A stretch of DNA of 64,000 nt from assembly GCA_030324005.1 (NCBI GenBank), contig JARDVH010000059.1, forward strand, positions 65,704,132-65,768,131. Reading direction: 5' to 3'. Of this stretch, positions 18,001-21,000 are shown piece after piece (the first letter of the stretch is position 1; each line of letters starts with the position of its first letter). A program made the position numbers. This stretch comes from Negaprion brevirostris (lineage: Eukaryota).

Positions 18001-21000
18001 TTTATTACCAGATTTGTTTTGGTAGTTTCTTGATTTGTGTGTGCATTTCAGATGTTAAAATATTTTTTAATGCAGCAAAGGCACATTATGGCTGAGAGAA
18101 ATGTGTTGTTGAAAAATGCGAAACATCCCTTCCTGGTTGGGCTTCATTATTCATTCCAAACCACAGACAAGCTCTACTTTGTTCTGGATTTTGTTAATGG
18201 TGGAGAGGTTAGTATTTCTATTTGAAGCAGTTGACTACTACAAACAGGTAACACTGAACTGTGATCTGCTATGACACCAAAAGAAACAGATTTCAGTATG
18301 TTTTAACACTTTAGAAAATTGATACTAATGTTAAAATGAAAAGACAAAAACAGACTACTGAAAGCTACTTGTGGGTAATTACATATAATAACTACTTCCT
18401 GTTTATTTTGATTTTGTTTTCTTTTCCCTTTGTCATATGTAGCATCAGTGTAGCTAATTTGTTCCAAGTTCTGCACTGGTGTTACATTAAGTATGCAAAA
18501 AAAATGCACTTCCTTATTATAAGGCCACTCGTGTATTACAATGCAGCCACTTGCGTGTGAGGAAGCAGCTGGCCTCAGTTTAATATCTTTTCCATTTCCC
18601 TACCGGCATTTTTGATTTGAAACTCCTTTCACCCCGAAATGAAAAGTTAATTCCAGTAGTCAAAACGTTATGCATTCCTTCTTGGCCTTTTGGCTAAGAT
18701 CAAATGTAGTTTTGGCATCCTGCACTTGATTGAAGTCATGGGGTTACTCTGAGGCTTCATTTGAAGCAATTTTTTAAAGCAGCATCTAGGCCTTTTGGCT
18801 TAGGTGCAAATGAGATCGAGCCTTGGAGAAGGTGCAATGCCTGCTCTGTGAGAAACACAGCTCACAGTTAAACAATTTAGTCAAGTCAAGTTATGAAGGA
18901 GCAAGATTTTTATTTAACTTTCTTGCAAGACCAGGTGTCCAACAAAATAGGCACACCTTACATCGATTTGCAGCACATTTTTATACTTTTTTACAAGCAT
19001 TGTAATGGCTNNNNNNNNNNNNNNNNNNNNNNNNNNNNNNNNNNNNNNNNNNNNNNNNNNNNNNNNNNNNNNNNNNNNNNNNNNNNNNNNNNNNNNNNNN
19101 NNNNNNNNNNATAATGTGGGTTATCAATGTGCCTGGCTATATCCGGTCTACCTAACTCTAAGCTATTTCTCTATGCTGTACAGATATGTGTTAACAGCAT
19201 CTTTACCTATTGCTCACATGCTCCAATCAGCTTGGATTATATAGATTAGGCCCAAGACAGGAAGTGGTGAGCCTCTCTTGTCAGCTTGGATCTGGAATGC
19301 CTCACTTGCTGAGACTTAGAATTGGACTTTTATATATATCTAATTCAATGCAATCAAAAAAAATTATTTTCTGTGTTCTTCCACCCTTGAGTTTTGAGCT
19401 TTATAGTCTTGCCTATTTCTGTAGTCTGCTCCAAATCTCAGCACAACTATTTTTTTGTCCAACTTTTGCTACTAGCACATGCATCACTTTCTTCACCACA
19501 CCATTTGTAACTCTGTCTTCAGCTTTCCAACTCCTAACTTGTGGAATGTTCTGCAACCTTGCACCTCTCTATCTCATTCATTGGCTTAAAAAGTGCTGTT
19601 TGCTATTTACTCCTTTGACCCAGCTTTTAATCATCTAGAATCGTATTTTCTGTTTGGGCTCTGTCAATTTTTGTAAGATAATACTCTTTTGAAGCACTTG
19701 TTATGATCCCGGAAAAGACCAATAACTTTAAATAAGAGATTTTATTTCCCAAATGACTGAAAGGGTCATATGTTAAGATTCAAATTTGAAGACTTTTACT
19801 GTTTACTGTACTAAAGCAACATCAACTAAACGCCATTTAAGGGCAACAATACTCTAAACTACAGCAAAGACATCCCCCCATTTCTTAATGACTAAAAAAC
19901 CCATGCCATAGATAAAATTTATTGCCTGCTGTCCGCAGAGTTTACAGTCTTTATGGGAAACAGTTACTCCCAGCTTCCAATAGGTTCGCTTCTCACTGTT
20001 TCATTGAGTCTCAAAAGATTTTCCAGCTTTTCCCACCAGTGGGATCTTGCAGTACCGCTGAAGGCAAGCCTCTGCAGCAGGGCAGGCAAACTTTGGCAGG
20101 ACAGAAACATCCCACTGCTGCCAATGACTCTACTGCCAGAAAACATCAGGGCTGGGGGTGGAGGAATCCCACCTGTCCGTCTGTCCACAATGTTGAGTGA
20201 TTGTCGAAATGTCTTTCTCTCAATTTCCAAAGAAGTTCCAAACCAACTGCCAGTAGTTAGACTTGCTCTGCCAATTCTTGGCCACGCTAGGACAAATCTT
20301 TCAGATTGCTTAGATCGCCAAGGGATGCATCTCTTCAACAGAAACCATCTTTCCTCTCGTATCTTGCCTTGTTGTCTACAGAAAAGACATACTCTGCTGT
20401 ACTGATTATACCAGCTACACCTCTCTGTGAGAACTCCCCTCTCTGTATCTCTTTCTGTCTGAAATTTCAGCAATAAAGTGTGCCACAGCTGTTTTTACCT
20501 TTGTTGTAGGTGTGAACATTTTACATGGTGATTGGGGGACCAAGCAAGATGATAACTAAGCCACCTGACTTCTTGTCAGGCAGAACTTATAACTGATTAC
20601 ATGACCCTCCATTCATTGAATCCCTACAGTGTGGAAGAGGCCATTTGACCCGTCGAGTTTGCACCAACTCTTTGAAAATGCACCTGACCCCACCTTNNNN
20701 NNNNNCCCCACACATTGATCATGGCCAATCCACCTAACCTGTACATCTTTGGACTGTGGCAGGAAGGCAGAGCAACCAGAGGAAACCCACCCAGACACGG
20801 AGAACATGCAGACTCCACAGACAGTCACCAAGGCTGGAATTGAAACCAGGTCCCTGGCGCTGTGAGGCAGCAGTGCTAACCATTGTGCCACCCTCCACTT
20901 TATCCTGAATTAAAGCAGCAAAACAGTCCAGGGGCCACACGCAGCCCATCAGGGTTCAAAGTGAGACCCATGAGACATTCTTGATGTTGCCCACATGCAG

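What the first reader, a model, noticed from the sequence alone, without database searches (positions are those of the whole stretch)
18674..18720. U2 homology stops at nt 37 in both copies, the site used by U2-targeting retrotransposons
Seen: both copies leave U2 right after ...GTGTAGT (nt 37), inside the branch-point recognition sequence GUAGUA. Known: Keno (Tx1 clade) and Utopia (NeSL clade) non-LTR elements insert site-specifically in U2 genes at about this position. U2 is transcribed by Pol II from an upstream PSE, so a U2 head provides no internal promoter. Inference: the master copy may be an insertion inside a real U2 gene, co-transcribed from the U2 promoter as U2(1-37)+element and then dispersed. 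That would be a route to SINE formation without a Pol III promoter. Alternative: a 3'-truncated U2 cDNA fused by template switching.
Basis: partly seen in the sequence, partly recalled or inferred. Interest (0 to 1): 0.7.

Follow-up and report, generated by a model that had tools for sequence, protein, structure and literature searches.

The report
Shark retroposon with U2 snRNA head
Two old, decayed copies of a short mobile element in what looks like a shark genome start with the first 37 or so bases of the U2 spliceosomal RNA. In the papers I could search, this rare kind of element is described only from crocodilians, and how it obtained its U2 head remains open.

Summary
Copy A (18674 onward) matches U2 positions 1-37. 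Copy B (63849 onward) matches positions 6-37, possibly to 40. No later part of U2 is detectable. The copies share a further 113 bases of non-head sequence and are 124 of 150 identical. Copy B interrupts a CR1-like LINE remnant. So this is a dispersed repeat family, not two U2 pseudogenes. About 105 bases downstream, each copy carries a second, older U2 piece (roughly positions 4-27). Runs of four to six T lie inside both copies, and no tRNA-like or other small-RNA head was found. This architecture matches SINEU (Kojima 2015), reported there only from crocodilians. The window itself carries an SGK3 gene and LINE debris closest to sharks.

The break does coincide with the Keno/Utopia insertion site (U2 38|39). 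However, neither copy lies in a recognisable U2 gene. The five bases after position 37 differ at 4 of 5 positions between the copies. No Keno or Utopia sequence was available for comparison. The co-transcription idea is therefore neither supported nor refuted, and template switching explains the data equally well.

Verdict: a new member of a known kind, of moderate interest.

The parts
18674..18710 (+). Copy A, U2-derived head (U2 positions 1-37)
   Evidence: cmscan U2 alignment gives 33 of 37 identical to the consensus. The head alone scores 36.4 bits. The single CpG has decayed to TG.
18711..18781 (+). Copy A, non-U2 spacer between the two U2 pieces. It contains a hairpin (18754-18767) followed by a T6 run (18770-18775).
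   Evidence: No Rfam family matches it apart from U2-driven alignments. It is homologous to the copy B spacer. Hairpin and T-run.
18782..18805 (+). Copy A, inner older U2-like piece (about U2 positions 4-27, stem-loop I)
   Evidence: cmscan model 8-25, 13.4 bits, E 1.6. It is 85.7% identical to the head over 28 bases. Alignment A2.
18806..19010 (+). Copy A, body. It runs into an N stretch (19011-19110), so the 3' end is not defined.
   Evidence: Homology to copy B is shown up to 18828. No other match in the window. No target-site duplication found.
63849..63880 (+). Copy B, U2-derived head (U2 positions 6-37, lacking the first 5 bases)
   Evidence: 31 of 32 identical to the Rfam consensus. The start is fixed by the break in CR1-like homology after 63848. 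The CpG has decayed to CA.
63881..63951 (+). Copy B, non-U2 spacer, with hairpin 63924-63937 and a T5 run at 63940-63944
63952..63975 (+). Copy B, inner U2-like piece (about U2 positions 4-27)
   Evidence: 95% identical over 21 bases to its own head. The 20-base pattern matches with 2 mismatches. Alignment A2.
63976..64000 (+). Copy B, start of the body, cut off by the end of the window
   Evidence: 21 of 23 identical to copy A
63660..63848 (+). CR1-like LINE 3' ORF remnant into which copy B inserted, in the same orientation
   Evidence: It aligns with a second CR1-like remnant at 2100-2340 up to 63848. That second copy continues uninterrupted past this point.

Best explanation
These are two old, dead, dispersed copies of a non-autonomous retroposon of the SINEU type in a cartilaginous-fish (shark-like) genome.

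The unit reads: U2 snRNA positions 1 to 37-40, then about 70 bases of non-U2 spacer, then an older U2 5' piece (positions about 4-27), then a body of unknown length.

Shown:
- the U2 origin of the head, and its end at positions 37-40;
- the shared non-U2 body;
- the nested second U2 piece;
- insertion of copy B into a CR1-like element with a 5-base 5' truncation;
- internal T runs, and no tRNA-like or other Rfam small-RNA head.

Inferred:
- Copies were made by a LINE reverse transcriptase acting in trans.
- The RNA comes from Pol II or read-through transcription rather than from an internal Pol III promoter.
- U2 5' sequence was captured at least twice onto the 5' end of the element.

For the capture step I favour template switching of the reverse transcriptase from the 5' end of the element RNA onto U2 snRNA. 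Kojima argued this for crocodilian SINEU. The landing would be in the single-stranded stretch after stem-loop I (placement recalled), and run-off would be to U2 position 1. Co-transcription from a U2 gene is the main rival, and the data here do not exclude it.
For: Head:
- Rfam U2 alignments cover positions 1-37 in copy A (33 of 37) and 6-37 in copy B (31 of 32).
- No U2 3' part is found in the rest of copy A.

Repeat family:
- The copies are 124 of 150 identical across head, spacer, inner piece and body.
- nhmmer and blastn find no further copy in the 64 kb.

Mobility: copy B breaks a CR1-like sequence exactly at U2 position 6, while the other CR1-like copy runs on.

Recurrent capture: an inner U2 stem-loop I piece lies 105 bases downstream in both copies.

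Not Pol III:
- T4-T6 runs lie inside both copies.
- ARAGORN finds 0 tRNA-like sequences in the window.
- No 7SL, 5S or tRNA hit at E up to 10.

Age: both heads have lost their single CpG, in opposite directions (TG and CA).

Support for template switching or repeated junction formation:
- The five bases after position 37 are identical at only 1 of 5 between the copies.
- The first 15 bases are identical at 8 of 15, against 116 of 135 elsewhere (Fisher p 0.003 and 0.005, with the site fixed in advance by the finding).
- Kojima 2015 documents many independent U1 additions with variable truncation points in SINEU-2 (PMC4494074, Results read).

Host:
- SGK3 exons are closest to named shark references, at 87-97% per exon for most exons against Scyliorhinus torazame.
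- The LINE endonuclease fragment is closest to sawshark and catshark proteins at 58-59%.
Against: - Only two copies are available, one cut by the window end and the other by an N stretch.
- The partner LINE is unknown. In 300 ORFs scanned, Pfam found no reverse transcriptase and only one CR1-like endonuclease fragment.
- The excess divergence at the junction is not significant if the position is not fixed in advance: 1044 of 5000 permutations reach 7 differences in some 15-base window.
- It could also simply be the loop of a hairpin.
- Template switching does not by itself explain why the break falls at the Keno/Utopia site.
- Direct sequence comparison with crocodilian SINEU was impossible. 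Figures and supplements were not available, and there was no repeat library.
Confidence: 0.6

Rival explanations
1. The element, or a Keno-like LINE from which it derives by internal deletion, sat in a U2 gene at the Keno/Utopia site. It was transcribed from the U2 promoter as U2(1-38)+element. Copies that landed outside U2 genes kept that leader. Each new landing in a U2 gene could add another head.
For: - U2 homology ends at positions 37-40. The Keno/Utopia 3' flank starts at U2 position 39 (PMC4640811, section 6; PMC6136364, passage).
- Copy A starts at U2 position 1.
- Nested U2 pieces fit repeated cycles.
- The inner piece may also run to about position 40, but the best test gave only 120 of 2000 shuffles, and the other three comparisons gave 540 to 1413 of 2000.
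- In crocodilians the SINEU partner LINEs cluster with Keno, and one of them (Tx1-11_Crp) carries a U2 head. Kojima notes that co-transcription with a target removes the need for a promoter (PMC4494074, Results and Discussion read).
Against: - 0 of 2 copies lie in a recognisable U2 gene. No other U2 hit occurs anywhere in the window at E up to 10. No match to U2 positions 36-46 lies between copy A and 20098.
- Position 38 is not A in either copy.
- The bases right after position 37 differ between the copies at 4 of 5 positions. A single master copy would not predict this.
- The inner U2 piece is secure only to position 27.
- Crocodilian SINEU also carry U1 heads. The papers I read mention no U1-targeting LINE, only the Dada-U1 family.
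Confidence: 0.3
2. The whole 5' 110 bases would be one rearranged U2 copy, like SINEU-3, which is an internally deleted U2. In this reading the spacer would be a diverged U2 stem-loop II and Sm-site region, and the homology would not truly stop at position 37.
For: - cmscan aligns the stretch 'CAUUUGAAGCAAUUUUUUAAAGCAG' of copy A to the U2 Sm-site region (model 85-112) with posterior 0.5-0.8.
- The full alignment scores 5.8 bits more than the head alone (42.2 against 36.4).
Against: - Searched on its own, the sequence after position 37 gives no U2 match except the inner stem-loop I.
- In copy B, cmscan aligns this region differently and with low posterior.
- The T run is low-complexity sequence.
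Confidence: 0.07
3. The two copies would be independent 3'-truncated U2 retropseudogenes, or one-off chimeric retrocopies (U2 fused to another RNA by a single template switch), and not a transposing family.
For: 3'-truncated and chimeric snRNA retrocopies are known in mammals (cited in the Discussion of PMC4494074).
Against: The two loci share 118 aligned bases beyond the head, including the inner U2 piece, and these are 95 of 118 identical. They lie at unrelated sites 45 kb apart, one of them nested in a CR1-like remnant.
Confidence: 0.03

Closest known systems
SINEU-1 of crocodilians (Kojima 2015, PMC4494074)
   Same: - The 5' head is derived from U2 snRNA.
- Older U-derived pieces are nested behind newer ones, showing recurrent 5' addition.
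- Oligo-T runs lie inside the element, and no recognisable promoter is present.
- The copies are old: the oldest subfamily is about 83% identical to its consensus, and here the two copies are 83% identical to each other.
   Different: - The host is a shark-like fish, whereas the paper states that no SINEU was found outside crocodilians.
- No U1 piece is seen here.
- The 3' tail, length, poly(A) and target preference are unknown here.
- Sequence homology to the crocodilian consensus could not be tested, so shared descent versus independent birth stays open.
SINEU-3 of crocodilians (internally deleted U2)
   Same: It starts with a short U2 5' piece (32 bp in SINEU-3, 37-40 here).
   Different: SINEU-3 continues with 83 bp of the middle of U2. 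Here no later part of U2 is detectable.
Keno (Tx1 clade) and Utopia (NeSL clade) insertions in U2 genes
   Same: The point where U2 homology ends (37-40) coincides with their shared insertion site (38|39).
   Different: - No LINE ORF lies next to either copy.
- No U2 remainder follows downstream.
- The elements lie outside U2 genes.
- Body similarity to Keno or Utopia could not be tested.
Tx1-11_Crp, a Keno-related crocodilian LINE with a U2 head (PMC4494074, Results)
   Same: It has a U2 5' leader on a retroelement that no longer sits in U2 genes.
   Different: It is an autonomous LINE, whereas the element here is short and non-coding as far as it can be read.
Chimeric snRNA retrocopies made by LINE-1 template switching (cited in the Discussion of PMC4494074)
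   Same: An snRNA 5' part is fused to another sequence. This is the proposed chemistry of the capture step.
   Different: Those are one-off events with different partners. Here the same composite unit occurs at two unrelated loci.

Membership tests
SINEU (snRNA-headed SINE, Kojima 2015) | The 5' region is derived from U1 or U2 snRNA | tested here: met
   U2 positions 1-37 in copy A and 6-37 in copy B
SINEU (snRNA-headed SINE, Kojima 2015) | The same composite unit is dispersed at unrelated loci as a retroposed family, not as one-off chimeras | tested here: met
   2 copies with a shared body, 124 of 150 identical. Copy B is nested in a CR1-like remnant with a 5' truncation. Only 2 copies were seen.
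SINEU (snRNA-headed SINE, Kojima 2015) | Recurrent 5' addition of U-derived sequence (a feature of SINEU-1 and SINEU-2) | tested here: met
   An inner U2 stem-loop I piece lies 105 bases behind the head in both copies
SINEU (snRNA-headed SINE, Kojima 2015) | Short (under 500 bp) with a 3' poly(A) tail | tested here: inconclusive
   Copy A runs into N at 19011. Copy B is cut at 64000. No target-site duplication was found.
SINEU (snRNA-headed SINE, Kojima 2015) | No Pol III promoter, with oligo-T runs inside the element | tested here: met
   T4-T6 runs in both copies. 0 tRNA-like sequences. No 7SL, 5S or tRNA Rfam hit.
SINEU (snRNA-headed SINE, Kojima 2015) | Sequence homology to the crocodilian SINEU consensus, and mobilisation by Tx1-Mar LINEs | not testable with these tools
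   No repeat library or eukaryotic genome collection was available. Figures and supplements of the paper were not held.
Functional U2 snRNA gene | Full-length U2 with stem-loops II-IV and an Sm site, reaching the Rfam gathering score | tested here: not met
   0 hits at gathering. The best score is 42.2 bits against 46, and only positions 1-37 align well.
Functional U2 snRNA gene | A proximal sequence element at about -55 (position recalled) | tested here: inconclusive
   A motif resembling the recalled human consensus lies at 18629-18647, that is -45 to -27 of copy A. It is the only match in the window, against 0.29 expected. The distance is wrong, and copy B has none.
Keno or Utopia insertion in a U2 gene | The element is followed by U2 from position 39 onward | tested here: not met
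   No other U2 hit in the window. No match to U2 positions 36-46 (up to 2 mismatches) between copy A and 20098. 100 bases are hidden by N.
Keno or Utopia insertion in a U2 gene | A LINE ORF (reverse transcriptase with APE or restriction-like endonuclease) belongs to the element | tested here: not met
   Pfam on 300 ORFs found no reverse transcriptase. The one endonuclease fragment lies at 61497-61829 on the other strand, with its best hits to shark proteins.
tRNA-, 7SL- or 5S-headed SINE | A head derived from a Pol III transcript with an internal promoter | tested here: not met

The most novel reading that the evidence does not exclude
U2 heads on retroposons would be footprints of target co-transcription. 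A Keno-like LINE and its parasites are transcribed from U2 promoters when they sit at U2 38|39, and they keep the U2(1-38) leader when they land elsewhere.

In that case snRNA-headed, Pol II-made retroposons would arise wherever Keno-like LINEs live, from sharks to crocodilians. The nested heads would record successive visits to U2 genes. The first 130 bases (stem-loop I, a hairpin, a U-run, then a second stem-loop I) might even be handled like a small snRNA.
Probability: 0.25. Interest if true: 0.7.

Novelty: new member of a known kind. Interest (0 to 1): 0.45.

Why it matters
In the paper that defined them, snRNA-headed SINEs are reported from crocodilians only. How they are transcribed and how they gain their heads was left open there. 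A second, very distant host would show one of two things. Either the class is ancient, or it is born repeatedly.

The break in U2 homology falls at the site used by U2-targeting LINEs. That turns the open question into a concrete test that can be run on any complete shark assembly. The test is whether heads pile up at position 38 and whether source copies sit in U2 genes.

Tried and rejected
- **Target-site duplication for copy A.** The best flank match is no better than shuffles (322 of 500).
- **More copies in the window.** blastn and nhmmer found none. One marginal relative of the spacer lies at 42686-42737 on the minus strand (nhmmer E 0.054). It aligns to copy A (2 of 500 shuffles), but against copy B its best alignment falls on the inner-U2 region instead. 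I left it open.
- **More copies through translated searches.** A 45-residue open frame across the copy B head and spacer found no candidate. In the representative library it found one 658-residue repetitive protein with 12 weak stretches. I judge that spurious and did not use it.
- **Atlas look-up.** It was closed.
- **U2-gene context.** A PSE-like motif lies upstream of copy A. I reject it as evidence because it sits at -45 to -27 and rests on a recalled human consensus. The TCTGTTCTT-like word near 19372 is also rejected, because the pattern matches 40 times in the window.
- **Origin of the spacer.** Resemblances I recalled to the Sm regions of U4 or U5 are not backed by any Rfam hit at E up to 10.
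- **Hairpin between U2 positions 11-36 and the next 27 bases.** RNAalifold predicts it. Fold z-scores are -2.54 for copy A and -4.44 for copy B. When the arm is replaced by natural window sequence, 279 of 3000 trials for A and 7 of 3000 for B fold as well. As a DNA inverted repeat it is not significant (171 of 300 and 160 of 300). I kept it as an unexplained note, not as evidence.
- **Extension of the inner U2 piece to position 40.** Not significant.
- **Collections.** The genome-contig collection holds only bacteria and archaea, so I did not use it.
- **Limits I kept to.** N stretches were left unfilled. SGK3 was searched as a single exon and mapped exon by exon with named reference proteins. 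The exons were not joined into a spliced model.
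Full report
**What is there.**
The stated interval holds the 5' end of a repeat. I call this copy A. It starts at 18674 on the + strand.

Rfam's U2 model aligns to it at model positions 1-37, with 33 of 37 bases equal to the consensus. A second copy, B, lies at 63844-64000 on the same strand and is cut by the window end.

Both hits are below the U2 gathering score: 42.2 and 33.5 bits against 46. 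There were 0 hits at gathering. Their window-wide E-values are 4.3e-05 and 0.0052. A 20-base stretch of the head occurs 3 times at up to 3 mismatches, against none in 100 of 100 shuffles. The third occurrence is an inner repeat in copy B.

The head of copy A alone scores 36.4 bits. The 300 bases after it give only one U2 match, an inner stem-loop I piece (model 8-25, 13.4 bits, E 1.6). So U2 homology really ends near position 37, and no later part of U2 is present.

**How precise the break is.**
In copy A the bases at U2 positions 38-40 read TTT. In copy B they read GTC. U2 has AUC there.

cmscan carries the copy B alignment to position 40 with falling posterior probability. With two copies that differ at 26 of 150 positions, the ancestral junction can only be placed at 37-40.

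**It is a repeat family, not two pseudogenes.**
The copies align without gaps over 150 bases (18679-18828 against 63849-63998) and are 124 of 150 identical, with 16 transitions and 10 transversions. This stretch covers the head, a spacer of about 70 bases, a second U2-like piece and the start of a body.

Each head has lost its single CpG in a different way, to TG in A and to CA in B. That fits independent decay of dead copies.

Upstream of copy B lies a CR1-like LINE ORF remnant. A second CR1-like remnant at 2100-2340 aligns with it up to 63848 and then continues. At the B locus, the sequence switches there to U2 position 6. So B is an insertion into another repeat and lacks the first five bases. 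That is the usual signature of LINE-mediated retroposition.

**The nested U2 piece.**
About 105 bases behind the head, both copies carry a second piece matching U2 positions about 4-27 (18782-18805 and 63952-63975). Its further match to positions 28-40 is only suggestive. The best of four comparisons gave 120 of 2000 shuffles, and the others gave 540 to 1413 of 2000.

The sequences following the two U2 pieces are unrelated, so this is not a simple tandem duplication.

**Promoter question.**
- T4-T6 runs lie inside both copies.
- ARAGORN finds no tRNA-like sequence in the window.
- No Pol III-type RNA family matches.

An internal Pol III promoter is therefore unlikely.

**Host and setting.**
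An SGK3 gene runs on the + strand, with coding exons between 1132 and 38418. Named shark proteins fit best, at 87-97% per exon for most exons against Scyliorhinus torazame, and none fits at 100%.

I searched one exon and mapped the others exon by exon.

A LINE endonuclease fragment at 61497-61829 on the minus strand is closest to sawshark and catshark proteins at 58-59%.

Copy A lies in an SGK3 intron, 464 bases after the exon that ends near 18210, in the sense orientation. Copy B lies about 25 kb beyond the last coding exon.

The window has 19 N stretches. One of them, 19011-19110, hides the continuation of copy A. I left all of them unfilled.

**Comparison with what is known.**
Kojima 2015 (PMC4494074; abstract, Results and Discussion read) defined SINEU. 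These are short retroposons with U1 or U2 heads, recurrent 5' addition of such heads, and internal oligo-T. They have no recognisable promoter and probably depend on Keno-related Tx1 LINEs.

That paper found SINEU in crocodilians only. It favoured template switching for head capture, and it raised transcription from flanking promoters as a possibility.

Kojima and Jurka 2015 (PMC4640811; sections 6 and 8 and passages read) show that Utopia and Keno share one site in U2, with the downstream U2 starting at position 39. PMC6136364 (passages read) words this as 37 nucleotides downstream.

My searches of the held library (and the unspecific) found no paper describing an snRNA-headed SINE in cartilaginous fish. 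Repbase and Dfam could not be consulted. Fig. 1B and the supplements of Kojima 2015 were not available. They would show how long the crocodilian U2 heads are.

**Testing the co-transcription idea.**
Evidence for it:
- the coincidence of the break with the Keno/Utopia site;
- the start of copy A at U2 position 1;
- the nested heads.

Evidence against it, within this window:
- Neither copy lies in a recognisable U2 gene. There is no other U2 hit in 64 kb. No match to U2 positions 36-46 lies downstream of copy A before 20098.
- Position 38 is not A in either copy.
- The bases just after position 37 are the least conserved part of the element. They are 1 of 5 and 8 of 15 identical, against 116 of 135 elsewhere (Fisher p 0.003 and 0.005 with the site fixed in advance).
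- That last result weakens when the position is not fixed in advance: 1044 of 5000 permutations reach the same maximum somewhere.

Such heterogeneity fits repeated, independent junction formation better than a single master copy. It could also be the unconstrained loop of a hairpin.

A motif resembling the human proximal element (recalled) lies 27-45 bases upstream of copy A. It is the only match in the window, against 0.29 expected. Its distance is wrong for a start at position 1, so I do not count it as evidence.

**An unexplained feature.**
U2 positions about 11-36 can pair with the 27 bases that follow the head.
- Fold z-scores are -2.54 for copy A and -4.44 for copy B.
- When the arm is replaced by natural window sequence, copy B stands out (7 of 3000) but copy A does not (279 of 3000).
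- As a DNA inverted repeat it is not significant.

If it is real, the U2 homology ends at the tip of a fold-back. I cannot tell whether this reflects origin or RNA structure.

**Verdict.**
The element is best read as a shark member of the SINEU kind, old and inactive, mobilised by a LINE that I could not identify.

I give it about 0.3, and template switching somewhat more.

A census of a complete shark genome would settle it.

Noticed in passing
window 1132-38418 (+): An SGK3 kinase gene. At least 12 coding exon matches to named shark Sgk3 proteins, with the last coding exon at 38251-38418. Copy A is intronic and in the sense orientation.
   Followed up: partly
window 17420-17498: A near-perfect 79-base palindrome with arms of about 37 bases. 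It gives a weak sub-threshold Rfam mir-3015 match on both strands (30.2 bits against 59). It is probably a fold-back repeat or the end of a miniature transposon. From memory, I recognise the word as common in shark sequences.
   Followed up: no
window 18629-18647 (+): The motif TCACC-N8-AAAAGT resembles the recalled human snRNA proximal element. It lies 27-45 bases upstream of the copy A head and is the only match in the window (0.29 expected). Its distance from U2 position 1 is not the canonical one.
   Followed up: partly
window 18711-18725 and 63881-63895: The 15 bases right after the U2 head are the most divergent part of the two copies (8 of 15 identical, and 1 of 5 in the first five). 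The head itself is 29 of 32 identical.
   Followed up: yes
window 18684-18745 and 63854-63915: The U2 head (positions about 11-36) can pair with the following 27 bases to form a long hairpin. This is strong in copy B and ordinary in copy A.
   Followed up: yes
window 18754-18775 and 63924-63944: A 5-bp hairpin (GCTTCATTTGAAGC) followed by a T5-T6 run is identical in both copies. Together with the inner stem-loop I it resembles an Sm-site-like layout.
   Followed up: partly
window 42686-42737 (-): A marginal match to the spacer of the element without a U2 head (nhmmer E 0.054). It could be a relative of the sequence onto which U2 was added.
   Followed up: partly
window 2100-2340 (+), 63660-63848 (+), 61497-61829 (-): Decayed CR1-like LINE pieces: two 3' ORF remnants about 77-81% alike, and one endonuclease fragment 58-59% identical to shark proteins.
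   Followed up: partly
window 19243-19329 (+) and 25989-26074 (-): Another short repeat shared between these two places (nhmmer E 2.5e-07). It lies just beyond the N stretch that follows copy A.
   Followed up: no
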